Shown here one piece after another: positions 49,986 through 63,616 of a stretch of DNA of 64,000 nt (positions within the stretch are counted from its first letter, which is position 1; each line of letters starts with the position of its first letter). A program made the position numbers and the translations under genes. Under the pieces are notes generated by a model. It worked only from the letters and a program-made list of their open reading frames with translations, did no database searches and was not told the origin of the DNA. The stretch spans positions 64,001 through 128,000 of IMG/VR virus record IMGVR_UViG_641201006_000001, one strand, 5' to 3'. This DNA comes from a virus (lineage: Duplodnaviria > Caudoviricetes).

Positions 49986-50849
49986 ATGAATCATAATATC
50001 AGCTATGAAGAACTCACACTATTGGTTTCGGCCTACCAAGATGGAAGTACAGATGCAGCAGAGCAAATCGTTGCAAACTATGACGGATACTTCCTTAAAT
50101 TTATGTCTGTCATGCATCCCGTTCGTTTTCGTATGAAGGATCGCACCCAGCGTAACTTCTTAAAGTTATTCTGCGGTGACGAATCCGTACGAAAGAATGC
50201 ACATCTATACGCTATTAACGAAGTGATTTATCGTAAGCTAATGGAAACGTTATCGAACGTTCGTGATATGTTTAGACACTATCATGAAGATGAACTCATG
50301 AGTGAGATGGTCATCATCTTACTTGAAATGGCGAGAGAACATAATGGAAAAGCTCCGTTTCATATTTACGTTGCTCACTACTTCCCACGCAAACTATACA
50401 AACGTCTGCGTAAAATGGTACAAGGGGATGTAAAACCAAGAGAAGTGTATTATGACGAGGAGGACATTCGTGTAGCGCATTATGATGATGAATACACGGA
50501 CGACAAACCACGTTATTATATCGAACCAACTACACCGACGGACTATGATGAAAACTGGGTCAACGGCTATGGTTGCGGAGAAGTGTTTGAAGATTTAACG
50601 ATTTACGAACGTCGCCTTATTAAATGGTATTACGAAGCGAAGGCGTTGAATCCTGAATCAATGGACAAGGATATTTACTTAGAGCGTAGAGCCGCTTGTA
50701 AGTGTACGGAGTCCGACATCGCAGATCGTCTAGGTTGTAACCGTAAAACAGTGAACCTAAAACGTAACGATGCAAAACGTAGAGTCGAGCAATATGCATC
50801 CGACCTACATTTACTTACGGGTAGCCAACCCAAAGCACATAAGGAGTAG
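49986..50849 (+). CDS. Phage-encoded RNA polymerase sigma70-family factor
   Basis: Region 2-like LVSAYQDGSTDAAEQIV..Y and region 4 HTH LT..ERRLI..YY...TESDIADRLGCNRKTV. Confidence 0.7.
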   Translation: MNHNISYEELTLLVSAYQDGSTDAAEQIVANYDGYFLKFMSVMHPVRFRMKDRTQRNFLKLFCGDESVRKNAHLYAINEVIYRKLMETLSNVRDMFRHYHEDELMSEMVIILLEMAREHNGKAPFHIYVAHYFPRKLYKRLRKMVQGDVKPREVYYDEEDIRVAHYDDEYTDDKPRYYIEPTTPTDYDENWVNGYGCGEVFEDLTIYERRLIKWYYEAKALNPESMDKDIYLERRAACKCTESDIADRLGCNRKTVNLKRNDAKRRVEQYASDLHLLTGSQPKAHKE

Positions 50850-52942: not shown

Positions 52943-54399
52943 ACTACAAGTTTATTATTGGCGGAGATGCCAAACATTATGTAGAGTTTTTCTTAAATCA
53001 AAACGACTACACGATTACAGGGCGTTACGCAAAGGCTGGCGTCATTGAGATGGAACACAAAGTAGTTGTCGATGATGTATTATCTGTAGAGCCTACCATC
53101 AACCCACGCTTTGAAGTGTCCAAGAAAGGACGCATATGGGACTTCCATGTAAGTAAACATGATGTGTATGGTAAAGAGTACCGCCGAAGCGTAGCCGTGT
53201 TTACAGCAGAAGATGTAAGTGCTGATAAGGTAGAACTATACAACGATACACAAACCGTGATGACATTAAAAGATTATTCCGTTCATCCACTCGATGTGTA
53301 TAATAGTCAGCTTTCCATCGGTAACTTTGAGTTCCGTACTGTCGATGGCATTACAGGTCAGTCCTCAACGCAGGACGGGAAACCAAAGCTAGGCACAGAC
53401 AGTTTACTCATGGGATTCGGCGGTGACATTCAGATTGATCTATTCGGCGAAGGCGTACTTGATGAAACAAAGATTCCATTTGTGATGATATTAAAAGTGG
53501 ATTCATTAGCGAAGAATGATAGTAGTGGGCAACACCAGTTAGGATTCCAACTAGGTGATAATATGTTTAAAATTGATACGACAAAAGGTATCATCTTGTC
53601 TCGTCCTGATACGGCAGACAAAACATTGTTCACAAAAGATAAGATTCCGACTGACCCGTTTACACTACGTCTATTCGTAAGCAAGACAGAGGCGAAACTA
53701 TTCTTGAATCACACATCTGTATCTATTCCGGATTATAACCGCAGTACACGAGTGGACTTCTTGAAGTTATATAGCTTCTGTAACAATGGTTCGTATTCGA
53801 TTATCGACCTTGTGCAGTTCCATGCACTGACGAACTTTAGACAAGATACAGTTCCTCCAAAAGCCGTTCGAGGTTTAGTAGCTACCGCAGGTAATAAGAA
53901 AGTATCCTTACAGTGGTTACCAAATACGGAGAACGACTTCAAAGGCTATCGTGTTTATGTCAACGGCAAGCAACATAACATCTCGCCGATCGCACTGAAT
54001 ATGTATGATGTGAATGCATTAGAAGATGGTAAGCCGGTACGTATCTCTGTAACCGCAGAAGACTTAGCTGGTAATGAAAGTGTAACGTCATCTGTTATCA
54101 CTATCGCACCGATCTTAGATGTGGCAAAAGAGGTTTCCAACTTCTCTGCACAGGTGACAGAAATCGGTGTACACTTCGATTGGGTTCCGCCAGTCTATAC
54201 AGATATGCAAGGTATTAAAGTATACCGCTTAAATCCAATTGATGGTACACGTATTGAATTAAAGAAACTTCCAACTGATGCGAAGACGTATTCTGATGAA
54301 CCAAAGCCGAAGCCGGGGATGTACACGTATATCGTTACAACCTACGACAAAGCAGGTACAGAGACATACGGTGTGCAAAAGACAATGGAAGTCTTATAA
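52939..54399 (+). CDS. FN3-containing protein (lectin-like + two FN3)
   Basis: DTVPP.A..GL.ATAGNKKVSLQW..GYRVY..VTAEDLAGNES. Confidence 0.7.
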   Translation: MNYKFIIGGDAKHYVEFFLNQNDYTITGRYAKAGVIEMEHKVVVDDVLSVEPTINPRFEVSKKGRIWDFHVSKHDVYGKEYRRSVAVFTAEDVSADKVELYNDTQTVMTLKDYSVHPLDVYNSQLSIGNFEFRTVDGITGQSSTQDGKPKLGTDSLLMGFGGDIQIDLFGEGVLDETKIPFVMILKVDSLAKNDSSGQHQLGFQLGDNMFKIDTTKGIILSRPDTADKTLFTKDKIPTDPFTLRLFVSKTEAKLFLNHTSVSIPDYNRSTRVDFLKLYSFCNNGSYSIIDLVQFHALTNFRQDTVPPKAVRGLVATAGNKKVSLQWLPNTENDFKGYRVYVNGKQHNISPIALNMYDVNALEDGKPVRISVTAEDLAGNESVTSSVITIAPILDVAKEVSNFSAQVTEIGVHFDWVPPVYTDMQGIKVYRLNPIDGTRIELKKLPTDAKTYSDEPKPKPGMYTYIVTTYDKAGTETYGVQKTMEVL

Positions 54400-54438
54400 A
54401 AAGGAGCAGGGGCGCACTGGGATATGCGCCCCTTTTTC
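54398..54438 (+). terminator. Terminator (possibly bidirectional) between convergent blocks
   Basis: AGGGGCGCA-ctgggata-TGCGCCCCT flanked by A- and T-tracts. Confidence 0.7.
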
Positions 54439-54520
54439 AAACTTGTTAGAGAGAAAACCAAGTGACACTCACAAGCAGCAAGCTAGGAGTTAATGATAGT
54501 ATAAACACAAAGTAAATTCT

Positions 54521-55372
54521 TTATGCTTGTAGATTAATAATTTTATCTCGGAATTGCCCCACAGGTAGAAAATTGGATTTGCACTCGACTTCTTCCGCAT
54601 GTTTACTGAATACCTCCATCCGTCTATTTACCTTTCGCTCGTTACCTGAAAATAAATATAGTACAGTAGGAAATTTCCTTCGGTAGAATTGCGACCATTC
54701 CTCATTGATCCATTGACCACTAAGCTCCCAATCTCGGTAACGTTCCAGTTTCTTAATTTCATCACTCTCTTTCTTCTCACACGTATCCACCTCAATGAAG
54801 TACCGGTATCCGTAGTTCCCTTTACGGAAGGCAAGAATAATATCCGGTTCAATGTTATAAGTTTTCGGCTTGTGTGTATAACAAGGCATGATGTAGTCAA
54901 TACTGATAGTGCCGTCTAGTTCGAGCAACCTCGCTGACGTGTACACATCAAGTATGTTTGAATGATGACGGTATTCGATAGACAATTGCTTGGGAGGTCT
55001 TCCTCCCTTATCTAACAATCTGTACCCGGCTCGGTCAAGCCAAATGTATTGCGGTGCTGTACCCTCCCCTAACGGAAGTCTAGGGGAGTATTTATTTACA
55101 AAATGGTAATCATATAACTTACGAATGCGGTCACGACATATTTGTCGTCCCTTCAATAATGTATAAAATGGTGCAAGTTCTCTCCCGCTCCTGAGAGACG
55201 TCGGTGGTGTAAGCCAAAATAGATGCTCTGTTTTTACAACAGGAAACTGCGCCATGATTCGAAGCATCTCCACATCACGGGGTGTCAGGATAAACCGATG
55301 CTGGTCTACCCAGTCGTCTGTTATCACTGACACTTCTTCTCGTTCTGAGCGACCTCTACGTATCTTCCCCAA
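54521..55372 (-). CDS. Replication-relaxation (Replic_Relax) family protein, putative relaxase
   Basis: LTPRD..L wHTH N-terminus, R.R.L...V....R, Y.LD..G, HH..., PD and FIEVD motifs typical of PF13814. Overlaps the ATPase stop. Confidence 0.8.
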   Translation of the reverse strand: MGKIRRGRSEREEVSVITDDWVDQHRFILTPRDVEMLRIMAQFPVVKTEHLFWLTPPTSLRSGRELAPFYTLLKGRQICRDRIRKLYDYHFVNKYSPRLPLGEGTAPQYIWLDRAGYRLLDKGGRPPKQLSIEYRHHSNILDVYTSARLLELDGTISIDYIMPCYTHKPKTYNIEPDIILAFRKGNYGYRYFIEVDTCEKKESDEIKKLERYRDWELSGQWINEEWSQFYRRKFPTVLYLFSGNERKVNRRMEVFSKHAEEVECKSNFLPVGQFRDKIINLQA

Positions 55373-57764
55373 GTCTCACACCCTCCTCGTCATCTATATC
55401 GTCATATGATGCTAGTAGTTCTTTGTATTGTTTGATATTCATCTTGAGATTCCGTGCGTTATTGTGAAGCCTTACTTCATCATAGCTTCGTGGAGCAAAA
55501 TGCATTCGCCACTTCTCCTCTAATTCCTTGTCACGACCAAACTCTTCCGGAACATCTAGACCATGAAAGATAAATGGAGGCAGTGCGCTCTTACCAACAT
55601 ATGTTTTAAAGTACCAGTGGTATTCCAGTTGTTCTAATTGCTTTAGTTCTTCGACGCTGATGCTAAGTTCTTGCGCCATAATCTTTAGGTTCTTTAAGTC
55701 GAGTCCACCACCAACTAATATATGAGGATTCATCCCGATGATTTGTTGCCATAACGCTTCGTTCTTTGATGACACTTGCGATGGATTCTGTATGAGGAAG
55801 TTGTCGCTCACGCCGTATTTCCGTGACTTCGATATAGATAGTTCAAAGATAGGTGTCGCATCCATATAGGTCTGCGGTTCGTCGTACATCTTATGATGAA
55901 TCGGCGGTAGCTTTCCTTGTTGCAGTAATCCTTCTCGCATAAGTGTCGCTGTCCAGTAACCATAGTTTAGGAAGCTCATCATCATGCGCTGCTCATTCTC
56001 AAGGAAGACACCGTTCGATAAATTGTACAGTACCCACTTGCCTTGATTCATCCAGTTGAAGATGTCGAGCTTACCTCCTGTTCCGCAGAAGATCGGGCCG
56101 AGTCGTTTGTTATATTGCAAATTATCTAATCTGTATAAAATAGGTTGCAGGATTTCAGTTACCTGACTATCACTCTTTACAATCTTCGGAAACTCTGTTT
56201 TCCACCAAAGGAATAATTCCGGATTACTCTTTCGTATCGTAGGCAAGAACTTACGACGGTACTCTTCATCTCGCATAAGAAGAATCAGTTCTAAGAAAGT
56301 CGCATCCGGATTACTAAAGACAGTCATCGCTGCTTTCCGTAAGAAACTATTCATCCGGTGATTGTGTGCTGTTTTAAAATACACCTCAAAGAACTCTGCA
56401 AACATCGCCCCTATTGTATCGCTATCTCTACCCAACGAGGAGAAGTTAAAGATATGGGGATATTTTTCGTCTGCGAAATTAACAAGTACAAGTTTTCCAC
56501 GCTCCTCTTCCGGTGTAGATTCGATAGCTTCGAGATAAAGTCTGCCGTCAGCAACATCGAATATTGACCCTCCGTGACCAGCTTCCATTGCTCCGTTTTT
56601 GAAGATTTTAACCGCTGTAGATTTACCACTTCCGGGAGGTGCAATCCAGAGTCGGGCTTTGCTCGCAGTGTCACGGTTAGCGACACTAAATCCCACCAAT
56701 GATCCCTCGGTAGCATACTCAATGCTATGTCCAATTGGGATAATATCTCGTGTAAGTCTTTCATCGACAGTCGTTTCATCCGGCTTCATCCTCTCTAACT
56801 TTCGTGTTGTAATCTCTTTAGTTGGAAGGCGAAGTAATACTTGTAGTTCATCATCACATAATAAACTTGCTGTCGTTAGCACCGGCATCTTACGTGTACG
56901 CATTGCCTCTAGTGTAGACTTCTTTCTAATAACAGGAGACATTTGCCAGCTATTATAATAGCCCGTACTTTTAAAACAAGATGCGATGGATTCAATGATG
57001 TCATTTCGGCGCTCATACGTATTCGCATAGACAGCTACTCTCACAACAACATGATATCCAGTCTGACGTACCTTCTGATTGAACTCTTTAATTTCACGAT
57101 GACGTTTTAGTTTCAAGGAAGGTTCTTCTTTTCCGAAGGACGATACAAGATGTGTGATTTGTTTATCGAGTTTGCGTCCGCCACTTTTGAGAAAGGAACC
57201 TCCGCTATCGGCATCACCTCCATTAATATAGAGTTCGTAGGCACGTTCTATCTCGTCTTGCCATCCATCCTCTACCGGATCAATCAGCAGTTGTACAAAA
57301 ACTTTTTCATCCTTTTGTAATTCTTCGGTAACGTACAAGATGTCTTTGCATAACATAGAAGTGTCCATCCTGTTAGGGAAGAAAGGTGCTTTGGTTGTGT
57401 GAAGGTAAGAGATGAGCGTGTTTTGACAGTCTGATACGAACGGCCAAGATGAGTGGATGTATTCCTTCACCCCGCTTCCTTTATAGACAGATTGAATCTT
57501 CTCTTTCAGCATGGTACGGTTCCCTACTGGGACGGTATACATGTAGAAACTTTCGTTGCTATCTGCGTACAGTTCTTGTGCAATGATGGGTTGACCGTCC
57601 CTTAGGGATTTAAACATTTGATTGTTACGTATACTTGAGAAGGACTTCATGAGTGCATGTAAGTCCTCATTTGTGTTGTCTGTAGCAGGTGCAACCTTAT
57701 ACGATACATAGTCATGTGTTTTAAATAGACCAGGAGTGAATTTACTTTTGATTGAGTTTTTCAT
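55356..57764 (-). CDS. VirB4/VirD4(TraG/TrwB)-type conjugative ATPase
   Basis: Walker A APPGSGKST, FN..(S)L, DEPQ Walker B, SRKYG...LIQNPSQ, C-terminal PPF. 802 aa. Confidence 0.8.
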   Translation of the reverse strand: MKNSIKSKFTPGLFKTHDYVSYKVAPATDNTNEDLHALMKSFSSIRNNQMFKSLRDGQPIIAQELYADSNESFYMYTVPVGNRTMLKEKIQSVYKGSGVKEYIHSSWPFVSDCQNTLISYLHTTKAPFFPNRMDTSMLCKDILYVTEELQKDEKVFVQLLIDPVEDGWQDEIERAYELYINGGDADSGGSFLKSGGRKLDKQITHLVSSFGKEEPSLKLKRHREIKEFNQKVRQTGYHVVVRVAVYANTYERRNDIIESIASCFKSTGYYNSWQMSPVIRKKSTLEAMRTRKMPVLTTASLLCDDELQVLLRLPTKEITTRKLERMKPDETTVDERLTRDIIPIGHSIEYATEGSLVGFSVANRDTASKARLWIAPPGSGKSTAVKIFKNGAMEAGHGGSIFDVADGRLYLEAIESTPEEERGKLVLVNFADEKYPHIFNFSSLGRDSDTIGAMFAEFFEVYFKTAHNHRMNSFLRKAAMTVFSNPDATFLELILLMRDEEYRRKFLPTIRKSNPELFLWWKTEFPKIVKSDSQVTEILQPILYRLDNLQYNKRLGPIFCGTGGKLDIFNWMNQGKWVLYNLSNGVFLENEQRMMMSFLNYGYWTATLMREGLLQQGKLPPIHHKMYDEPQTYMDATPIFELSISKSRKYGVSDNFLIQNPSQVSSKNEALWQQIIGMNPHILVGGGLDLKNLKIMAQELSISVEELKQLEQLEYHWYFKTYVGKSALPPFIFHGLDVPEEFGRDKELEEKWRMHFAPRSYDEVRLHNNARNLKMNIKQYKELLASYDDIDDEEGVRLGEDT

Positions 57765-57861
57765 TTGTTATCACCTTCAGTGTGCCGTAACCAATCATAA
57801 GTAGTACCATCGTATTTACGCCAAGCAGAATCGTCTGCATAAAGATAAGTGTCTGTAACAT
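57742..57861 (-). CDS. Small single-TM peptide (39 aa; missed by ORF track), VirB3-like position
   Basis: AGGAGG RBS. MLQTLIFMQTILLGVNTMVLLMIGYGTLKVITNEKLNQK* overlaps the ATPase start. Confidence 0.65.
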   Translation of the reverse strand: MLQTLIFMQTILLGVNTMVLLMIGYGTLKVITNEKLNQK

Positions 57862-57871
57862 TGTCATCCTC

Positions 57872-58750
57872 CTATCGTTTCAGTATGGCGAATCGTGCAA
57901 GCCTTCCGATTGTTTTGAGTGGTGCTAAACTGTTTGCGCCTGAGTCCATCATGCCGCGAACCCATCCCGGAGGATTCAGCATCATGTGTAGCCCGCCAAT
58001 CGCAAGCATAATCTTGATAATACCGTACTCCATACCTTGCCATGCGCTATGAGTGGGAAGCAGATTCGGACTATAAAGTATGATGGCAATCAGTCCAAGC
58101 ATAAAGCTATGAGCGACCTGCACAAAGAACTTATGAATGTTATCTTTCGTCCACATAGATAAGATACTTTCAAATGGTTTGAAGATATAGCTGACCATCA
58201 CAAACGGTGTGACCAGCATATTAAACATGAGTCCGAACCAACGATACGCATGATAGAGAAGTATTTTAAAGAGGTAGAATCCGAGTGCGAGTAAGAAGAA
58301 GAATGTAAGTACAGACATGAATATACTATTGCTAAGACCTGTTAGATGATTCACGAATACATCGTTACCTTCCATTGCTCCGCCTGTAATCAGACCCATA
58401 TACGATACGAGTTCATTCACGCCAATCGCCGTGTAATAAAAGATAAAGGGTACAATAGCAGATACAACAATCGCAATCGGAAAGCGTACAGCGATTTGAC
58501 TCATTGGTGTATAGCTGAGAGATAACGTGCGTTTAAGTCCTTCTATCATCGTAAGTACCGTAACGACTGCCATAGAGACTCCGCTCATCTTGAGGAGTAT
58601 ACCAATCATAGCAGGGTTCTTAAATAACTCGAAGGGAGTAAAGAGTACGTACTTTAACATATCGGTAAATATCCAGTTCACGAACTCGACTACGAACCCT
58701 CTTTCTCTTACGATAAGATCCGGTGCGCTCATACAACCCGATAAAAACAT
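57872..58750 (-). CDS. VirB6/TrbL-like polytopic membrane protein (start uncertain)
   Basis: 6-7 TM segments with R...L.....(V)TPF...., W......FVQV.H pattern typical of VirB6/TrbL. Lies between pilin and ATPase. Confidence 0.65.
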   Translation of the reverse strand: MFLSGCMSAPDLIVRERGFVVEFVNWIFTDMLKYVLFTPFELFKNPAMIGILLKMSGVSMAVVTVLTMIEGLKRTLSLSYTPMSQIAVRFPIAIVVSAIVPFIFYYTAIGVNELVSYMGLITGGAMEGNDVFVNHLTGLSNSIFMSVLTFFFLLALGFYLFKILLYHAYRWFGLMFNMLVTPFVMVSYIFKPFESILSMWTKDNIHKFFVQVAHSFMLGLIAIILYSPNLLPTHSAWQGMEYGIIKIMLAIGGLHMMLNPPGWVRGMMDSGANSLAPLKTIGRLARFAILKR

Positions 58751-58776
58751 CGGTGCAATGAGTACCGCACGTTTCT

Positions 58777-59301
58777 TTAGTTTGTGTAGTTGGGGAATAA
58801 GGCTAGAAAACCTCTTACAATAGTAGCTATAACCCCTAACACTGCTGGTGCAGTAAGAACCATCGTCATGCCCGCAACGGCATCCTTGTAACGTTTCTTC
58901 GCTTCTTCTCTTAAACCAATCATACGGAAGAATCCTGCTACCATTGCCATGATGATTGCGACGCTGACACATACGCCTAAACAGATTATCTGTACCTTGA
59001 GCAGCACTTCGTCTACTTCCGGTGGTAGCTTTGCTTGATCTACTGTCTCTGCTGATGTTGGCATTGCTATCATGACATTCGTCCAAGTGGCAAGAACGGT
59101 TGTGTAGATGTATACGATAACCTTGTTTCGTTTTTTCGTACGTACCGCCTTGCCCTTTAGAAAATTTACAACATCCTTCGTGTCAGAATTGAGATTTTGT
59201 TTTGCATGGGTGAGAATATCTTCCTTGCATACAGAAACCATGTCATGCTCTACAGTTCCTTTTCGACCACGTATATTGAATGCAGGTGTCACTTTCTTCA
59301 C
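58777..59301 (-). CDS. VirB2/TrbC-like pilin with long N-terminal leader
   Basis: AGGAAGGA RBS + GTG. Signal-like segment ending TSA-E, then two TM helices separated by a charged REEAKKRYKD loop (G.R..G..E.AK......G..(V)L.AP). Confidence 0.7.
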   Translation of the reverse strand: MKKVTPAFNIRGRKGTVEHDMVSVCKEDILTHAKQNLNSDTKDVVNFLKGKAVRTKKRNKVIVYIYTTVLATWTNVMIAMPTSAETVDQAKLPPEVDEVLLKVQIICLGVCVSVAIIMAMVAGFFRMIGLREEAKKRYKDAVAGMTMVLTAPAVLGVIATIVRGFLALFPNYTN

Positions 59302-59327
59302 GTCCTTCCTGTGGTTATCTACATCAT

Positions 59328-59358
59328 ACTGTATGACAATATTCCCTCGTCTTATGAC
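59328..59358 (-). promoter_or_regulatory. SigE-like (mother-cell sporulation) promoter of the conjugation-like operon
   Basis: Minus strand GTCATA-N17-CATACAGT. B. subtilis SigE consensus is ~(G/T)CATA..N..CATAcanT. Confidence 0.65.
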
Positions 59359-59394
59359 TGATAGTAGTTTAAAATAAATATAAGGAGGTGGAAA

Positions 59395-59913
59395 ATGATG
59401 GTTCAAAGTAATCGTGATGTAAGTAATCAAGGTGTATACAATAACAATGGATTATTAATTGGTGCAGGTCTTGCAGGTGCAGGAGGTTTAGCGTGGGCGT
59501 TACTTCGCCGTGGTAAAGGTGCAGGAAAGATGATGGGTCACGCTGATTCACAAACAGCATCGTCCGTTGTAGCTCCGGTAGAGCAGGGATTTCAACCACA
59601 AAACTTTCTAAAGAATGCTGTTGAATCTGAAAAGCTAAAAGAAACACGAATTGGTTTAAGTACCTACTTATCTAAAAATCCTGCTAATGTAGATGGTGAA
59701 GTATCACATGCACTAAAATACAGTCAGGATAAATTCGGTGCTAAACTATGGGATGAATATGATGGTAGACCATTAGAACAAGACAAGTCGAAATGGACAA
59801 AGGATTACTTAGGATACTTAAAAAGTGACCTACGCAATAACTTCGCCGAAGAACGATTTAATCACATTCTAGATGTGGGAAGACAAGTGAGAGGGAAGCC
59901 AACACAATTATAG
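59395..59913 (+). CDS. Hypothetical membrane-anchored protein
   Basis: AAGGAGGTG RBS. Gly/Ala-rich TM (GLLIGAGLAGAGGLAWALL) followed by RRGK. Confidence 0.65.
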   Translation: MMVQSNRDVSNQGVYNNNGLLIGAGLAGAGGLAWALLRRGKGAGKMMGHADSQTASSVVAPVEQGFQPQNFLKNAVESEKLKETRIGLSTYLSKNPANVDGEVSHALKYSQDKFGAKLWDEYDGRPLEQDKSKWTKDYLGYLKSDLRNNFAEERFNHILDVGRQVRGKPTQL

Positions 59914-59919
59914 CCGGAC

Positions 59920-60186
59920 TCAATCGAACCCGGCTAAGATGTTATCTATGACTACGCCTTCGGATGCACTTGTAACACCCGGCATTCGTATTTTAATTTG
60001 CTCTTTAGGTTTTGGTTTAAGAGGGGGAGTCGGTATCGTCTTTTGGTCAAGTCGCATCATCGCTTCGTACTTTAACCCATACCTGACCAATTGACGTAGC
60101 CTCTTTGATCTATCCTCTATATTTTCAAACGCATCTATAATATCCTTATCTCGTTTCGGGGAGAGTCTTGCTTGTAAATCAGCCAT
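59920..60186 (-). CDS. ParR-like ribbon-helix-helix adaptor
   Basis: Small gene overlapping the parM stop. ARLSPKRDKDII..FE...DRSKRLRQLVR N-terminus and Pro-rich linker. Confidence 0.65.
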   Translation of the reverse strand: MADLQARLSPKRDKDIIDAFENIEDRSKRLRQLVRYGLKYEAMMRLDQKTIPTPPLKPKPKEQIKIRMPGVTSASEGVVIDNILAGFD

Positions 60187-61171
60187 GTGCAATCAGCCTT
60201 CCATACTTCGCAAAGCCTCGTGCATTACCGAACTCCGGATTATCATGCTTCAATATAATATCTCCGAACTGACTTTGGAAGAATGGTGTTAATCCAGTAG
60301 ACCCGCCACCAGTGAGTAAAATCTCATGAACATCATCCGGATTCACCCACACTGGAATCTCTCCGCTAATACTTCCAACATGCATATCAATTGCAGAAGT
60401 AATTAATTCACTGATGTCTGTTGCAATACCTTTAATGTATACCTTGCGCTCACGGTAGATTTCATCTATCTGTGTCAGGTTCTTACGAATACCATACTCT
60501 TTAGCTAATAAACGACGTAACTCTTTATGGAAGTTGTTTGTAGCGGTATACAGTGTTGTAGATTCACTACGACTAAACCGACCATTGTTCATAGTTACAA
60601 TCTCTGTCGTGCGGTAACCAATGTTTACAATTACCGTTTTCGGTTTAACACGTTCCGTAATGACCTGCCCACTTTCATCGAGAATGTAATCGTAGTAGTC
60701 TCCGGCTCCTTGCGGAACGACAACCACTTTCTGAATCGTGCTACGGCACTTGCGTCCTCGGAACGAATAGTCATAGTCCCTGACAAATTCAGTTTCAATC
60801 TTATCTTTAACAAGGAAGTATTCTTCCACCGGTACGCCTGTAACCATAAGGTCAATCTTGTTCTGTCCTGTCTCATACAATAGCCCCAGTCCTGTAAGTA
60901 ATTTTACTGTCTCGTCTATTGTATCCACTTTGTTAGCTAGGAATGTATACCGGTGATTGGTAGCAAATTCGGAAGCCTTATCTCCTACGTAATACGTTTC
61001 GTCATCATACGTAAGCCACAAGTCTTTCATTGTCTCTCCATGATCTGTAGCGTTCTGTATCTCAAGTGAGGTAGGGAAGCCAATAATATTCGGGAACTTG
61101 AACTCAATGTCATCCTCTAAGTTAATGCCTTTAAACTGTTTGAAACCAATGTCGCAACCAAATATATACAT
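60179..61171 (-). CDS. parM: ParM/StbA-family actin-like partition ATPase
   Basis: GCDIGF phosphate-1, YYVG, VTGVP, VVPQG, NIGYRTT phosphate-2, LTGGG adenosine, NARGF. Confidence 0.88.
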   Translation of the reverse strand: MYIFGCDIGFKQFKGINLEDDIEFKFPNIIGFPTSLEIQNATDHGETMKDLWLTYDDETYYVGDKASEFATNHRYTFLANKVDTIDETVKLLTGLGLLYETGQNKIDLMVTGVPVEEYFLVKDKIETEFVRDYDYSFRGRKCRSTIQKVVVVPQGAGDYYDYILDESGQVITERVKPKTVIVNIGYRTTEIVTMNNGRFSRSESTTLYTATNNFHKELRRLLAKEYGIRKNLTQIDEIYRERKVYIKGIATDISELITSAIDMHVGSISGEIPVWVNPDDVHEILLTGGGSTGLTPFFQSQFGDIILKHDNPEFGNARGFAKYGRLIAHG

Positions 61172-61192
61172 GGTAACACCCTCTCATGATTG

Positions 61193-61270
61193 TTGTACTA
61201 CATATCTATGGCATAGGAATTGTCCATTATAACCATTACGCAAAAATAACAGGAATATTATGTAGTACAA
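61193..61270. repeat. Perfect 12-bp inverted repeat (TTGTACTACATA / TATGTAGTACAA), candidate operator
   Basis: Arms at 61193-61204 and 61259-61270 in the parM/padR divergent intergenic region. Confidence 0.75.
61203..61233 (-). promoter_or_regulatory. SigE-like promoter of parMR
   Basis: Minus strand GTTATA-N17-CATAGATA. Same geometry as the 59328-59358 promoter but a weaker -10 match. Confidence 0.45.
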
Positions 61271-61282
61271 GTGGATAGACTA
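61253..61282 (+). promoter_or_regulatory. SigF/SigG-like (forespore) promoter of padR
   Basis: GAATA-N15-GGATAGACTA versus SigF consensus GYATA-N15-GGnnAnAHTR. Confidence 0.55.
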
Positions 61283-61323
61283 GCAGTAAGTGACATTCTC
61301 AAACATGACAGGAGGAAATAAAA

Positions 61324-61755
61324 GTGACAGCTAAAGCAAAGAAACCTAGATATGCAGGTGCATATAATCGGTTATTCCCGGTTAAAGTATCTACGAGTAC
61401 ATTCCTGACAATCTATATTTTACATTTGTTAACACGAAAGGAACGTTTATATGGTAAGGAAATCATCAACGAAATCGAGAACCGCTTCGCCGGTGAGTGG
61501 AAACCTTCGCACGGTTTGGTATATCCGATACTCCGAGAACTTGAAGCGGAGGGTCTAGTAAAAGGTCATTGGATAGGTGAAAGTTCTAAGAAGACGATTC
61601 GTACGTATAGCATCACGAAAAAGGGTAAAGCAGCGTACATAGAGGAGAAGGAGAAGCACAAGGATGCATTCTCGAAATCATTCTTTATGATGGAAACGTT
61701 GTTGGGGGATTTGTATACAGACTTTGAGATGATAGATATAGAGGATTTAAAATAG
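61324..61755 (+). CDS. PadR-family transcriptional regulator
   Basis: AGGAGG RBS + GTG. ILHLL....YG.EI..I......S.G.VYP.L..LE.EGLV...Y.IT.KG. Confidence 0.9.
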   Translation: MTAKAKKPRYAGAYNRLFPVKVSTSTFLTIYILHLLTRKERLYGKEIINEIENRFAGEWKPSHGLVYPILRELEAEGLVKGHWIGESSKKTIRTYSITKKGKAAYIEEKEKHKDAFSKSFFMMETLLGDLYTDFEMIDIEDLK

Positions 61756-61778
61756 AGGAGCGAATGCTCCTCTTATTT
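61750..61778. terminator. Bidirectional terminator between convergent genes
   Basis: AGAGGAGC-gaat-GCTCCTCT flanked by A/T tracts. Confidence 0.7.
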
Positions 61779-63530
61779 GTTGTAGTACGGTTGCAGACAC
61801 ATACGCCAGTGTTTATCGTTTAGGTTCTTGTTACCTGCTTCAATCATAAGTTGTATTACATCTGTGTTCGGAGCGCCACCAATAAAGGTAAAATCCTGTA
61901 TACCACGTTCTTGAATGTAATCACCTAATGACCACGGCAACTTCGCTGCTTCGAACTGCTTATGATAATTCAGCATCGGCTGATTGCGAAGACCAGCAAC
62001 AACCGAACCGCAATAACAATCTGACCAGTGTGCATCTGTTGAAACATAAATACCATTACTGTAATTTGTTTGTACTGCTTTATGGAACTCCACGGCTGAA
62101 CGGTTTCTGTCAGGTGCAGATAGTCGCTCCGGATTCGGTAAGTTCCATTCTACATTCTGACCGACATACCTTTCAATACCAACGATGATAGATGCTTTGA
62201 ATCTACCAGCCATAGCCTTTGTATAGTCGGTTAATGTACCTTGACGGGTTAATATGATTGGTGTACGTGTTTGAGCAGCGTACGAGGCAATGCCGTACGT
62301 CATAAGATGTTCCTCGCCATTTACAACGAGTACCTTCTTCTCACCTGTACCAAACCATGTGGATACATTCCCTGATAGTTCATACCGATCATTCCCGTTA
62401 ATGCGGTCTACCTGTAGTCCCATTGCACGAAGCTCTGCTTCTACGTTACCGCCGATTGACCACTTTGTTCCTACGACAATGGCACGATTTGCGCCAAGTC
62501 TACGTATCTCATTCTTGATTGGCGTTGGTACGCCGTCATATGGTACAGGGAATAGTGGCCCATTAACGGTAGCGGCAAGTGGTACGGCACATAACATTTC
62601 AGGAGAACCTTGCTCGCCTTCCGGTCTAACACGACGCTTCTCAAGTACATCGTACTCTAGAGAAAGCATAGTTGGTAAATCGACTACGCCGTCCTCACGC
62701 TGAATGTTAAATGGATTACTACCACGACGTTGCTTCGCTTGGTATAACCATACGGCTACCTTCGTCGCAATATCGAAACGACCATTTACCATTAGACCAG
62801 CTTCAAGGTTACGCTTTGTAATGTCACCAACCCAGCGACCTTGCATGTCGTCACCTTCACCGCACATCTCATTAAACATCTTCACGCCAAGCAGTGGCCC
62901 CGAACCATACTTACCATCGTACTGAATACTACCGTCAGGTGAACCCATCCATAGACCAAACAATCCGCCCGGATATTTATCTAAGCGTTTCTGTAAGTCG
63001 ATTTCCCATTGACTGCGGTAATCATAACGACCACCACCGATTGTTTGATGGATACGATAACCATATGCAGATTCAGGAGCATAACGTAAACAGATATACC
63101 ATTCTCCCGACCAACGTCCAATGGCACGATTCATCCACGGATTCGTGAATACAGCGTCCGGCATAATTCTATCCCAAACACCTGCGTCACCTTGATAGTA
63201 TTTGTTCCAGTTAAACTTGATTGGATCCCAACCCATTCCCACTTCACGAAGACGTTGTTGTAATTGTCGTATCGCTGTTGTTTGCGGTGCTTCAATACAA
63301 CGTGGGTCTAGGTTCTGAAATTCAGGGCCATCCCAATCCGTTTGTCCAATGTGTAAGTTAAGCGGCCAGTGAAATTCTTTATGCACATACACATCTGTTA
63401 CTTGCTCTTGTGGTTGGGGTAATTGAAGCGGTGCAAGTACGACTGTACCTGTTCCGCCACCCCAGTGATGCCGTGATACAGCAGCAGCCGTTTCATATAC
63501 ATCGGCTCCACTCACAACTTGAAATCCCAT
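61773..63530 (-). CDS. Cell-wall-binding repeat 2 (CWB2) protein with inserted peptidoglycan-binding-like domains
   Basis: Three CWB2 starts (SGADVYETA, NGNDRYELS, SAPDRNRSA) with PIIL / IVG motifs. Insert has IRQLQQRL..G and NGRFD..T..AV..YQ...DGVV. Confidence 0.7.
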   Translation of the reverse strand: MGFQVVSGADVYETAAAVSRHHWGGGTGTVVLAPLQLPQPQEQVTDVYVHKEFHWPLNLHIGQTDWDGPEFQNLDPRCIEAPQTTAIRQLQQRLREVGMGWDPIKFNWNKYYQGDAGVWDRIMPDAVFTNPWMNRAIGRWSGEWYICLRYAPESAYGYRIHQTIGGGRYDYRSQWEIDLQKRLDKYPGGLFGLWMGSPDGSIQYDGKYGSGPLLGVKMFNEMCGEGDDMQGRWVGDITKRNLEAGLMVNGRFDIATKVAVWLYQAKQRRGSNPFNIQREDGVVDLPTMLSLEYDVLEKRRVRPEGEQGSPEMLCAVPLAATVNGPLFPVPYDGVPTPIKNEIRRLGANRAIVVGTKWSIGGNVEAELRAMGLQVDRINGNDRYELSGNVSTWFGTGEKKVLVVNGEEHLMTYGIASYAAQTRTPIILTRQGTLTDYTKAMAGRFKASIIVGIERYVGQNVEWNLPNPERLSAPDRNRSAVEFHKAVQTNYSNGIYVSTDAHWSDCYCGSVVAGLRNQPMLNYHKQFEAAKLPWSLGDYIQERGIQDFTFIGGAPNTDVIQLMIEAGNKNLNDKHWRMCLQPYYNK

Positions 63531-63576
63531 GTCATCACCTTGTTTCTTATGTAGTAAGGCGGGTTTGCCTCACTCT

Positions 63577-63585
63577 ATTATAACA
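63577..63585 (-). promoter_or_regulatory. Extended -10 element TGTTATAAT
   Basis: Immediately after a terminator and before a small hairpin and RBS of the CWB2 gene. Confidence 0.5.
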
Positions 63586-63586
63586 A

Positions 63587-63614
63587 GAAAAGAGGCATCC
63601 GAAGATACCCCTTT
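63587..63614 (-). terminator. Rho-independent terminator
   Basis: Minus strand AGGGGTATC-TTCG-GATGCCTCT-TTT. Confidence 0.75.
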
Positions 63615-63616
63615 GT

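What the first reader, a model, noticed from the sequence alone, without database searches (positions are those of the whole stretch)
54521..61755. Phage-borne minimal conjugation-like + ParMR module wired to sporulation sigma factors: candidate machine for moving phage DNA into the forespore
Seen: inside a myophage genome lies a tightly overlapping operon of VirB2-like pilin, VirB6-like protein, 39-aa TM peptide, a single VirB4/VirD4-type ATPase and a Replic_Relax protein. Next to it are parM/parR and a divergent padR. The transfer operon is preceded by GTCATA-N17-CATACAGT and parMR by GTTATA-N17-CATAGATA (SigE-like), while padR has GAATA-N15-GGATAGACTA (SigF/G-like). Established: SigE acts only in the mother cell and SigF/G only in the forespore. 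Gram-positive conjugation systems normally also need a separate coupling protein plus VirB4, a VirB1-like wall hydrolase and VirB8-like proteins, none of which is in this operon. Inference: the stripped-down channel may not mate between cells but translocate phage/plasmid-prophage DNA across the thinned sporulation septum/engulfment membranes (spore entrapment), with ParMR positioning the DNA and a forespore PadR keeping it silent.
Basis: partly seen in the sequence, partly recalled or inferred. Interest (0 to 1): 0.92.

Follow-up and report, generated by a model that had tools for sequence, protein, structure and literature searches.

The report
Known phage DNA-transfer and partition operon
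This stretch is the already published, laboratory-dispensable "DNA translocation operon" of Bacillus thuringiensis phage 0305phi8-36, and the idea that it pumps phage DNA into the developing spore is attractive and testable but so far rests only on indirect sequence clues.

Summary
The window is bases 64,001-128,000 of a 218,948-bp virus record with terminal repeats. That length matches Bacillus thuringiensis phage 0305phi8-36. The finding covers orf200-207, which Pathria et al. 2012 (PMC3357382) published as a "DNA translocation operon". Deleting it caused no growth defect in plaques.

My searches confirm most of the gene content:
- A Replic_Relax/MobC-type relaxase.
- One T4SS-type ATPase, the only one in the genome.
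- A polytopic VirB6-like protein, a VirB2-like protein and a 41-aa membrane peptide. Their family hits are all below threshold.
- ParM (solid), a ParR assigned by position only, and PadR (solid).

The same module occurs in many phages of endospore-forming hosts, including the lytic phage SPO1.

All three promoter strings are present, but they differ in weight:
- The SigE-like box before the operon is a single match. The genome holds 3 such matches against 2.8 expected, and none lies before 7 distant homologous modules.
- The parMR "SigE" box is weak and overlaps a perfect TATAAT.
- The padR SigF-like box belongs to a truly enriched family: 9 found against 2.5 expected.

Transfer of phage DNA into the forespore remains an untested hypothesis, with circumstantial support only. 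I did not find it in print.

The parts
54408..54433 (-). Intrinsic terminator closing the transfer operon
   Evidence: Stem of 10 pairs (7 G-C) followed by a T run.
54521..55372 (-). orf200: Replic_Relax / MobC-type relaxase, with a winged-helix N-terminal part and a PD-(D/E)XK-like C-terminal part
   Evidence: phrog_9381 at E 4.5e-102. Pfam PF13814 at 23.6 bits, under the 25.3 cut-off. Homologues pass Pfam. P176, D177, E194, D196 and K208 are invariant in 4 phage homologues. Published HHpred link to CloDF13 MobC (PMC3357382, Results).
55356..57764 (-). orf201: T4SS-type hexameric ATPase, with a soluble DUF8128 N-domain and a VirB4/TrwB-like C-domain; no TM segment
   Evidence: Walker A G378-K381 and Walker B D628-E629 are conserved. 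The AlphaFold model has pLDDT 89.2. The C-domain aligns to VirB4 4ag6 at Z 27.8 and to TrwB at Z 25.7. Of 60 family members, 29 hit TrwB_AAD_bind. No TM segment.
57742..57867 (-). 41-aa single-TM peptide overlapping the ATPase start; possibly VirB3-like by position
   Evidence: ORF; one hydrophobic segment at residues 7-25. No family hit.
57872..58786 (-). orf203: polytopic membrane protein (VirB6-like in the literature) with a lipobox L-S-G-C; start codon uncertain
   Evidence: phrog_3750 at E 1.8e-94. A signal-like segment plus 5 further hydrophobic segments. The lipobox is conserved in relatives. Of 10 relatives, 1 hits TrbL at E 0.011. The structural model was too poor to use, pLDDT 43.7.
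58777..59292 (-). orf204: VirB2/T4SS_pilin-like protein with a leader and two TM helices
   Evidence: PF18895 at E 0.0017, 18.9 bits, below the cut-off. phrog_3528 at E 7e-49. TM segments at 102-120 and 148-166. Similar sub-threshold hits for SPO1 gp29.1, Shanette gp157 and LysYB1.
59328..59358 (-). SigE-consensus-like box GTCATA-N17-CATACAGT, about 35 nt before the GTG start of orf204
   Evidence: Sequence. One of 3 strict matches in the genome against 2.77 expected. No second gene-proximal example.
59395..59913 (+). orf205: inverted gene, published as a minor capsid protein (moron); not part of the machine
   Evidence: ORF. PMC3357382 Results.
59920..60192 (-). Putative ParR (adaptor), assigned by position
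   Evidence: Overlaps the parM stop by 14 nt. No family hit. The nearest named Atlas cluster is Plasmid_stab_B at score 0.85, which is a lead only.
60179..61171 (-). orf207: actin-like ParM
   Evidence: ALP_N 60.5 bits and MreB-like_C 38.3 bits, both above their cut-offs. phrog_691 partition protein at E 4.8e-70.
61193..61270 (.). parM-padR control region: a 12-bp perfect inverted repeat (61193-61204 and 61259-61270), the weak SigE-like box 61205-61233 (-) and TATAAT at 61226-61231 (-)
61253..61282 (+). SigF-consensus-like box GAATA-N15-GGATAGACTA before padR
   Evidence: It is a member of a pattern family enriched in this genome.
61324..61755 (+). PadR-family regulator, divergent from parMR
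   Evidence: PF03551 at 68.5 bits.

Best explanation
IDENTITY (near certain). This is orf200-207 of phage 0305phi8-36, the published accessory 'DNA translocation operon'. It sits beside an actin-like ParM/ParR cassette and a PadR regulator.

ANATOMY (shown).
- A MobC/Replic_Relax nuclease-type relaxase.
- One soluble T4SS-type hexameric ATPase.
- Three membrane proteins: a VirB2-like protein, a polytopic lipoprotein-like protein said to be VirB6-like, and a 41-aa TM peptide.
- These five genes overlap tightly and end at one terminator.

MECHANISM (inferred).
- The relaxase nicks phage DNA.
- The ATPase docks on the membrane proteins and drives DNA across a membrane.
- ParM filaments push phage genomes towards the cell poles.
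- PadR, acting through the 12-bp inverted repeat, sets the level of parMR and of its own gene.

CONTEXT (inferred; I commit to this at modest odds). The module is not used in ordinary lytic growth. It serves when the host stops growing and sporulates, and it raises the share of spores that carry a phage genome (virospores). Polar positioning by ParMR is the most likely step. Active pumping into the forespore is a less likely added step.
For: IDENTITY.
- The window lies at 64,001-128,000 of a 218,948-bp record with terminal repeats.
- The published deletion 118,397-124,982 maps to window 54,397-60,982 and removes orf200-207 with no growth defect (PMC3357382, Results).

PARTS.

ONE ATPASE ONLY..

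DISTRIBUTION.
- The ATPase has homologues in 86 phage records, all from Bacillus, Geobacillus, Lysinibacillus or Brevibacillus phages.
- With SPO1 gp27.4 as query there are 144 records, and 143 are from phages of endospore-forming genera.
- Relaxase homologues: 56 of 56 records are Bacillus phages.
- The same gene layout occurs in unrelated phage lineages: SPO1, Shanette, Sophrita, YungSlug and D6E.

LINK TO SPORES.
- SPO1 is reported to form virospores, and its ParM gp27.9 is suggested to affect entrapment (PMC12991052, passages).
- A good SigE-like box lies before the operon.
- A SigF-like box family is enriched and includes padR.
Against: - There is no expression, localisation or phenotype evidence for any sporulation role.
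- The SigE box is a single match at chance frequency genome-wide: 3 against 2.77.
- The SigE box is absent within 250 nt of the relevant gene starts in 7 of 7 distant homologous modules.
- The sigma consensus patterns I used are recalled, not taken from a tool.
- The host association is confounded. Phage lineages and their gene exchange follow host clades.
- The wider ATPase family (DUF8128) also occurs in non-sporulating phyla.
- The phage encodes a YonO-like RNA polymerase (PMC2147016 and PMC7824862, passages) and a sigma-like ORF. The boxes could therefore be read by phage factors.
- A 9-of-12 SigA-like pair also lies upstream of the operon at 59406-59377.
Confidence: 0.35

Rival explanations
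1. Cell-to-cell spread without virions (the published idea). The relaxase and ATPase mobilise phage DNA, or other DNA, into neighbouring cells in chains or biofilms. This happens either through the phage's own minimal channel or, as with CloDF13 MobB/MobC, through the mating pore of a resident conjugative plasmid.
For: - All recognisable parts derive from conjugation machinery, whose known role is transfer between cells.
- A published HHpred link ties orf200 to CloDF13 MobC, and the authors propose propagation by translocation in biofilms (PMC3357382, sections read).
- Borrowing a helper pore would explain the missing second ATPase, VirB8-like protein and hydrolase.
- An M23 wall peptidase sits inside the module in Sophrita and YungSlug.
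Against: - No transfer has ever been shown.
- Strictly lytic phages such as SPO1 keep the module. A transferred lytic genome gains little over a virion unless receptors are lacking.
- This reading does not explain the constant linkage to ParM.
- It does not explain the restriction of close homologues to phages of spore-formers.
Confidence: 0.25
2. A SigE-timed channel, made in the mother cell, pumps phage DNA across the sporulation septum or the engulfment membranes into the forespore. PadR, made in the forespore, keeps the genome silent.
For: - The SigE-like box lies at 59328-59358, at a suitable distance from the first gene.
- The padR box fits the SigF pattern and belongs to an enriched family.
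- Host distribution and published SPO1 virospores (PMC12991052).
Against: - The same points as listed against the best explanation apply.
- The parMR 'SigE' box departs from the recalled consensus at two -10 positions and overlaps a perfect TATAAT.
- No SigE-like box occurs in 0 of 7 homologous modules.
- The SigF-like family precedes at least 7 other phage genes of unknown function in the right arm. It may simply be the phage's own promoter class (PMC2147016).
Confidence: 0.12
3. An episome kit with no transfer. Replic_Relax acts as a nicking replication initiator and ParMR partitions a plasmid-like (carrier-state or pseudolysogenic) form of the genome. The ATPase and membrane proteins anchor or resolve DNA at the membrane.
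For: - PHROG names the relaxase family 'replication initiation by nicking'.
- The same layout, with a tyrosine recombinase, sits on a 162-kb circular Bacillus 'plasmid' record and in Sophrita.
- The phage does not lyse liquid cultures (PMC3357382, abstract).
Against: - The PHROG name is an annotation, not a test.
- T4SS-type ATPases with pilin-like and polytopic partners are not known replication parts.
- The phage is published as genomically lytic.
Confidence: 0.15

Closest known systems
The 'DNA translocation operon' orf200-207 of phage 0305phi8-36 (Pathria et al. 2012, PMC3357382) and its SPO1 counterpart gp27.3/27.4/27.9
   Same: It is the same DNA. The relaxase, the ATPase, the VirB6-like protein and the actin-like protein were already named there, and the deletion phenotype is known.
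   Different: Points added here:
- The pilin-like first gene, also present in SPO1 (gp29.1) and Shanette (gp157).
- The 41-aa peptide and the lipobox of the VirB6-like protein.
- ParR and PadR.
- The structural class of the ATPase.
- A much wider spread among phages.
- The analysis of the promoter boxes.

The paper never mentions spores, sigma factors or promoters (0 occurrences).
CloDF13 MobC/MobB mobilisation pair (MOB-C relaxase plus its own coupling ATPase)
   Same: A relaxase of the same family sits next to a T4SS-type ATPase. The channel is incomplete and could be borrowed (published HHpred E 4.4e-22, PMC3357382 Table 2).
   Different: The phage ATPase has no membrane anchor and carries a DUF8128 N-domain. 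The phage adds its own membrane proteins and ParMR.
Minimal Gram-positive conjugation systems (ICEBs1 Con, pCW3 Tcp, pCF10 Prg); composition recalled
   Same: A VirB6-like polytopic protein, small TM proteins next to a soluble ATPase of about 800 aa, and a wall hydrolase in some relatives of the phage module.
   Different: One ATPase instead of two. No TcpC/VirB8-like protein. No hydrolase in this operon.
Actin-like plasmid partition systems (ParMRC of R1; AlfA/AlfB and Alp7A/R of Bacillus plasmids)
   Same: ALP_N and the C-domain score above threshold. A small downstream adaptor gene overlaps parM.
   Different: No array of direct repeats of the parC type was found upstream, only one 12-bp inverted repeat pair. 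The carrier is a lytic phage.
Spore entrapment of virulent phages (phi29 with host Spo0J/parS; SPO1 virospores)
   Same: The same biological problem: getting a non-integrated phage genome into the forespore (PMC12991052, passages).
   Different: The known phi29 route uses host segregation proteins (recalled). No phage-encoded transfer machine has been tied to entrapment in the papers I could search.

Membership tests
Replic_Relax / MOB-C relaxases | Match to the family profile | tested here: met
   phrog_9381 at E 4.5e-102 over the full length. Pfam PF13814 gives only 23.6 bits against a 25.3 cut-off for this protein, but 47.5 and 41.9 bits for the homologues SPO1 gp27.3 and Sophrita gp247.
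Replic_Relax / MOB-C relaxases | Conserved acidic, nuclease-like core in the C-terminal half | tested here: met
   H136, P176, D177, E194, D196 and K208 are invariant in 4 phage homologues. Mapping these residues to the PD-(D/E)XK motif is recalled.
Replic_Relax / MOB-C relaxases | Site-specific nicking at an oriT | not testable with these tools
   No oriT was identified.
T4SS ATPases (VirB4 / VirD4-TrwB) | Walker A and Walker B motifs conserved | tested here: met
   G378, G380 and K381, and D628 and E629, are invariant or nearly invariant in 19 close and 60 diverse relatives.
T4SS ATPases (VirB4 / VirD4-TrwB) | Fold of the motor domain | tested here: met
   Model pLDDT 89.2. VirB4 C-domain 4ag6: Z 27.8, rmsd 3.4, 341 residues aligned. 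TrwB: Z 25.7, rmsd 4.4, 365 aligned. HerA: Z 26.3. These rows are tied, so the subfamily is not resolved.
VirD4-type coupling protein specifically | N-terminal transmembrane anchor | tested here: not met
   No hydrophobic segment in 802 aa. The same is reported in PMC3357382.
VirB4 specifically | Match to VirB4 profiles and to the VirB4 N-domain | tested here: inconclusive
   No AAA_10 hit in the genome, and 5 of 60 relatives hit AAA_10. Full-length R388 TrwK aligns over 560 residues at Z 20.8 but with rmsd 10.5. The N-domain is DUF8128.
VirB6 / TrbL | Match to the family profile | tested here: inconclusive
   No hit for this protein. Of 10 relatives, 1 hits PF04610 at E 0.011. The structural model was unusable, pLDDT 43.7. 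The published claim of homology gives no statistics.
VirB6 / TrbL | Polytopic membrane protein with five or more TM segments | tested here: met
   Six hydrophobic segments, including the signal-like one.
VirB2 / T4SS_pilin | Match to the family profile | tested here: inconclusive
   PF18895 at 18.9 bits against a 26.6 cut-off. Similar sub-threshold hits occur in 3 other modules. Of 22 relatives, 1 carries PF18895.
ParM / actin-like partition ATPase | Match to ALP_N and to the C-domain above the cut-offs | tested here: met
   60.5 bits (cut-off 26.3) and 38.3 bits (cut-off 27.8).
ParMRC system | Adaptor protein and a centromere of iterated repeats | tested here: inconclusive
   The 90-aa downstream ORF has no family hit. 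Only a 12-bp inverted repeat pair was found upstream, with no repeat array.
PadR regulators | Match to PF03551 above the cut-off | tested here: met
   68.5 bits against a 27 cut-off.
SigE-dependent promoter | Match to the consensus ATA-N16-18-CATACAnT (recalled) | tested here: met
   59328-59355 (-).
SigE-dependent promoter | More frequent than chance, or conserved in homologous operons | tested here: not met
   3 in the genome against 2.77 simulated. None in 0 of 7 distant modules. Near relatives could not be read at these positions.
SigE-dependent promoter | Transcription that depends on SigE in the mother cell | not testable with these tools
   This needs an experiment.
Complete Gram-positive conjugation system | Two ATPases, a VirB8/TcpC-like protein and a dedicated wall hydrolase | tested here: not met
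   One ATPase. No TcpC. No AAA_10 or FtsK_SpoIIIE. The only M23 domain lies in the tail frame.

The most novel reading that the evidence does not exclude
Phages of endospore-forming bacteria carry a dedicated 'virospore machine'. It combines a ParMR polar-positioning device with a conjugation-derived, one-ATPase channel made in the mother cell under SigE. The channel delivers relaxase-nicked phage DNA into the forespore. This would explain how strictly lytic phages such as SPO1 and 0305phi8-36 survive inside spores.
Probability: 0.12. Interest if true: 0.9.

Novelty: already known. Interest (0 to 1): 0.45.

Why it matters
How the genome of a virulent phage gets into a spore is an old and still open question. 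Virospores are now being measured for SPO1 (PMC12991052). This module is a concrete and deletable candidate:
- A deletion mutant of exactly this block already exists for 0305phi8-36.
- SPO1 carries the same layout in a host with good genetic tools.

If the module proved to raise spore carriage, it would be the first phage-encoded machinery for that purpose, and a new use of conjugation parts. If it did not, the published idea of virion-free spread between cells, or a plasmid-like carrier state, would remain to be tested.

Tried and rejected
DNA OF CLOSE RELATIVES, TO TEST PROMOTER CONSERVATION.
- The search for related loci found nothing in viral contigs or in genome contigs.
- It found two metagenome loci without the upstream part.
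- The record behind L005 is not held.
- Laying contigs of 4 of 22 listed runs gave mostly relatives about 99% alike. 235 difference rows were not shown, so conservation of the boxes could not be judged.

STRUCTURE OF THE VIRB6-LIKE PROTEIN. The model had pLDDT 43.7 and was not searched.

COMPLEX PREDICTION. I asked for the ATPase with the 41-aa peptide.

PHAGE SIGMA FACTORS. There are no Sigma70_r2 or Sigma70_r4 matches in the genome. Only a weak sigma-like ORF exists at 49986-50849.

A SHARED PHAGE PROMOTER MOTIF BEFORE THE OPERON. I looked for one (AAACTAA-type words) and found none convincing.

THE SIGA-TYPE SCAN. It lists a 9-of-12 pair upstream of the operon. Such matches are fewer here than in shuffles (14 against 23.4), so it counts neither way.

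PAPERS NOT HELD. The SPO1 genome paper and the 0305phi8-36 genome paper. Their promoter maps or annotations may bear on these claims. Supplementary files were not opened.

NOT IN PRINT, AS FAR AS SEARCHED.
- No paper holds phage + forespore + entrapment + relaxase.
- The 8 papers with '0305phi8-36' + spore were seen as a listing only. Of the 8 with 'DNA translocation operon', I read passages of 4: PMC3357382, PMC4113786, PMC12991052 and PMC11988461.
- One search was badly framed and says nothing.

RNA RUNS. Three runs hold 55-57% of the sampled words of the stretch.

Full report
WHAT THE WINDOW IS. The window is bases 64,001-128,000 of a virus record of 218,948 bases with direct terminal repeats. 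That is the published length of Bacillus thuringiensis phage 0305phi8-36 (218.948 kb; PMC3357382 abstract; accession and length also listed in PMC12474458). Adding 64,000 to the finding's coordinates gives genome 118,521-125,755.

Pathria et al. 2012 isolated a deletion of 118,397-124,982 that removes orf200-207. They found no change in plaque size or yield. They described the deleted block as a "DNA translocation operon":
- a relaxase (orf200, linked by HHpred to CloDF13 MobC);
- a coupling ATPase without membrane helices (orf201);
- a VirB6 homologue (orf203);
- an MreB/actin-like protein (orf207).

They gave SPO1 gp27.3, gp27.4 and gp27.9 as the closest counterparts. They described orf205 as an inverted gene for a capsid protein (Results). 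That paper never uses the words spore, sporulation, sigma, promoter, forespore or pilin (0 occurrences each).

THE GENES, CHECKED. The ORFs lie as described. The five transfer genes overlap or abut, and they end at a strong terminator.

Relaxase.
- It matches phrog_9381 over its full length (E 4.5e-102).
- It falls just under the Pfam Replic_Relax cut-off, 23.6 against 25.3 bits.
- Its homologues in SPO1 and Sophrita pass.
- An alignment of four phage homologues keeps H136, P176, D177, E194, D196 and K208.

ATPase.
- It has no Pfam hit of its own above threshold.
- It belongs to a large family: 1921 representatives at E up to 0.001, and 386 at up to 1e-10.
- Of 60 aligned members, 29 hit TrwB_AAD_bind, 25 DUF87, 22 TraG-D_C, 14 T4SS-DNA_transf and 5 AAA_10.
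- Walker A and Walker B are conserved.
- The AlphaFold model is confident, with pLDDT 89.2.
- Its C-terminal half aligns about equally well to three folds. VirB4 C-domain: Z 27.8, rmsd 3.4, 341 residues. HerA: Z 26.3. TrwB: Z 25.7, rmsd 4.4, 365 residues.
- Foldseek ranks full-length TrwK/VirB4 first, at E 2e-16.
- The soluble N-terminal 330 residues are a DUF8128 domain.
- The protein has no hydrophobic segment.
- It is therefore a T4SS-type motor, but it cannot be assigned to VirB4 or VirD4.
- A profile of the family finds only this gene in the genome.

Three membrane proteins, less certain.
- The first gene, 171 aa from a GTG start, has a leader and two TM helices. It hits T4SS_pilin below threshold.
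- The first genes of the SPO1, Shanette and LysYB1 modules give similar sub-threshold pilin hits.
- The polytopic protein has six hydrophobic segments and a lipobox that relatives keep. Only 1 of 10 relatives touches TrbL, at E 0.011. Its model was too poor to use.
- The 41-aa peptide has one TM helix and no relatives that I could name.

Partition and regulator genes.
- ParM and PadR are solid.
- ParR is assigned by position, with one weak lead.

WHAT IS MISSING.
- The genome has no AAA_10, TcpC or FtsK_SpoIIIE match.
- Its only M23 peptidase domain lies in the 1930-aa tail frame.
- In relatives the module is sometimes fuller. Sophrita and YungSlug carry an M23 peptidoglycan peptidase between the membrane genes and the ATPase.

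HOW WIDESPREAD THE MODULE IS.
- tblastn with the ATPase finds 86 phage records: Bacillus 76, Geobacillus 5, "Deep-sea" 2, Lysinibacillus 2 and Brevibacillus 1.
- With SPO1 gp27.4 as query there are 144 records: Bacillus 131, Geobacillus 5, Deep-sea 2, Lysinibacillus 2, and one each of Alicyclobacillus, Brevibacillus, Clostridium and Microcystis.
- All 56 records with a relaxase homologue are Bacillus phages.
- The layout is pilin-like gene, ParM, small ORFs, ATPase, relaxase. It recurs in lytic myoviruses (SPO1, Shanette) and in large siphoviruses (Sophrita).
- Partial forms occur in YungSlug, LysYB1, D6E and PBC5.
- A 162-kb circular Bacillus "plasmid" record carries it beside a tyrosine recombinase.
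- So 143 of 144 phage records come from hosts that form endospores. This is suggestive but confounded, because phage lineages and gene exchange follow host clades.
- The broader DUF8128 ATPase family also occurs in phyla that do not sporulate.

THE PROMOTER BOXES. All three strings exist. The consensus patterns against which I judged them are recalled from the literature on Bacillus subtilis and were not checked with a tool.

Box before the transfer operon.
- It fits ATA-N16-18-CATACAnT exactly.
- That pattern occurs 3 times on both strands of the genome against 2.77 in 30 simulated genomes.
- The other two hits are not in front of genes.
- One such hit anywhere in the 9.1 kb of upstream DNA is expected about 0.04 times. 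Given that several sigma patterns could have been tried, this is mildly unusual and no more.
- No other gene has a SigE-like -10 with a -35.
- Within 250 nt of the first, ParM and ATPase gene starts of 7 distant homologous modules there is no strict or relaxed SigE box. There is not even a bare CATACAnT.

Box before parMR.
- CATAGATA departs from the -10 consensus at two positions.
- Its "GTTATA" lies inside GGTTATAAT, a perfect TATAAT.
- TATAAT is enriched before genes in this phage: 12 observed against 6.3 simulated.

Box before padR.
- The pattern G[TCA]ATA-N14-16-GGnnAnAnT[AG] occurs 9 times in the genome against 2.5 expected (maximum 6 in 30 simulations).
- It occurs 5 times in upstream regions against 0.10 expected (0 of 200 simulations reach that).
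- At least 7 of the 9 sit 10-45 nt before a ribosome-binding site. They share further letters: TTACA in the spacer and AAGTAA after the -10.
- This is a real promoter-like family of the phage, and padR belongs to it.
- Hardies et al. 2007 described 14 phage-specific promoter candidates with 21 bp of self-similarity. They tentatively gave them to the phage's own RNA polymerase (orf99) (PMC2147016, passages). This may be the same family, but I could not see their logo.
- Whether host SigF/SigG, a phage factor or the YonO-like polymerase reads these boxes is open.

WHAT IT MOST LIKELY DOES. The following points are shown:
- The anatomy.
- Dispensability in plaques.
- Wide conservation, including in strictly lytic phages.
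- Linkage of the transfer genes to ParM.

The function has to be inferred. A conserved module that is useless in plaques must serve in a state that plaques do not sample. Three published or recalled facts point to sporulation:
- SPO1, which has the module, forms virospores. Its authors suggest that ParM gp27.9 may affect entrapment (PMC12991052, Discussion passages).
- Actin-like partition systems push DNA to the poles, where the forespore forms (recalled).
- The close homologues are confined to phages of spore-formers.

I therefore put "raises carriage of the phage genome into spores" first, at about 0.35. ParMR positioning is the likeliest step.

The published alternative is virion-free spread to neighbouring cells, or mobilisation through a resident plasmid's pore as with CloDF13 (PMC3357382, section "Biofilms"). 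It fits the ancestry of the parts and the M23 peptidase in relatives, and I give it 0.25. A plasmid-like carrier state with no transfer gets 0.15.

COMPARISON AND NOVELTY. The feature itself is already known. My searches add several details:
- The pilin-like first gene and its counterparts in other phages.
- The peptide and the lipobox.
- The unresolved VirB4/VirD4 class of the ATPase, with its DUF8128 domain.
- The host distribution.
- The statistics of the boxes.

I did not find the spore hypothesis for the transfer genes in print. The nearest statement is the 2026 remark on SPO1 ParM. The hypothesis is cheap to test, because a deletion mutant and a virospore assay both exist. That is the main value of the finding.

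LIMITS.
- No DNA of relatives 57-92% identical could be read at the promoter positions.
- The SPO1 and 0305phi8-36 genome papers and all supplements were unavailable.
- No experiment on expression was possible.

Noticed in passing
Genome positions 157266, 164000, 171309, 177324, 181759, 189485 and 193979 (- strand, outside the window), plus window 61253-61282 (+): A family of boxes like the SigF consensus (G[CT]ATA-N14-15-GGnAAnAnTA, with TTACA in the spacer and AAGTAA after it) lies directly before right-arm genes of unknown function. There are 9 hits against 2.5 expected. It may be the published 14-member phage-specific promoter class, whose likeness to forespore sigma promoters is not mentioned in that paper.
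   Followed up: partly
Genome 164-212 kb, outside the window (for example 164701, 181418, 198200, 205127): About 16 intergenic hairpins share the loop GTTCGCAC and are followed by a T-rich run and TGTA. They look like a stereotyped terminator, or terminator-promoter, cassette of the early region.
   Followed up: no
window 58735-58786 (-): The VirB6-like protein has a lipoprotein-type signal (…LIAPMFLSGC) that relatives keep. In this phage, however, no ATG, GTG or TTG lies just upstream of it, and the codon at the expected start is CTA. The true start is therefore unclear.
   Followed up: partly
L002 4531-5253; L008 4977-5861: An M23 peptidoglycan peptidase sits inside the homologous module of phages Sophrita and YungSlug. 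This phage has none in its operon.
   Followed up: partly
window 49986-50849 (+): A 287-aa ORF matches phage sigma-factor family phrog_351 (E 1.3e-12) and, weakly, sigma-70/ECF (23.2 bits, below the cut-off). The 2007 paper stated that no sigma factor was recognised in this genome.
   Followed up: partly
window 61773-63530 (-) and its leader 63531-63616: The neighbouring 585-aa protein has CWB2 wall-binding repeats and no recognisable catalytic domain. Its leader has TTGTTATAAT (an extended -10) directly after a terminator hairpin.
   Followed up: no
window 54400-61800: Three metatranscriptome runs from food fermentation hold 55-57% of the sampled words of this stretch, and several metagenomes hold close relatives.
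   Followed up: no
window 59375-59912: One low-depth contig of run X1 joins 59375 to 59912 and so skips orf205. This would fit orf205 being a moron absent from a relative, but the flank is only 30 letters at 80% likeness (table 5).
   Followed up: no
L018 (NZ_CP076118, 162-kb circular record): A Bacillus amyloliquefaciens 'plasmid' carries ParM/StbA, small ORFs, the T4SS-type ATPase, a replication-relaxation protein and a tyrosine recombinase, in the same order as phage Sophrita. It is possibly a phage-plasmid.
   Followed up: no
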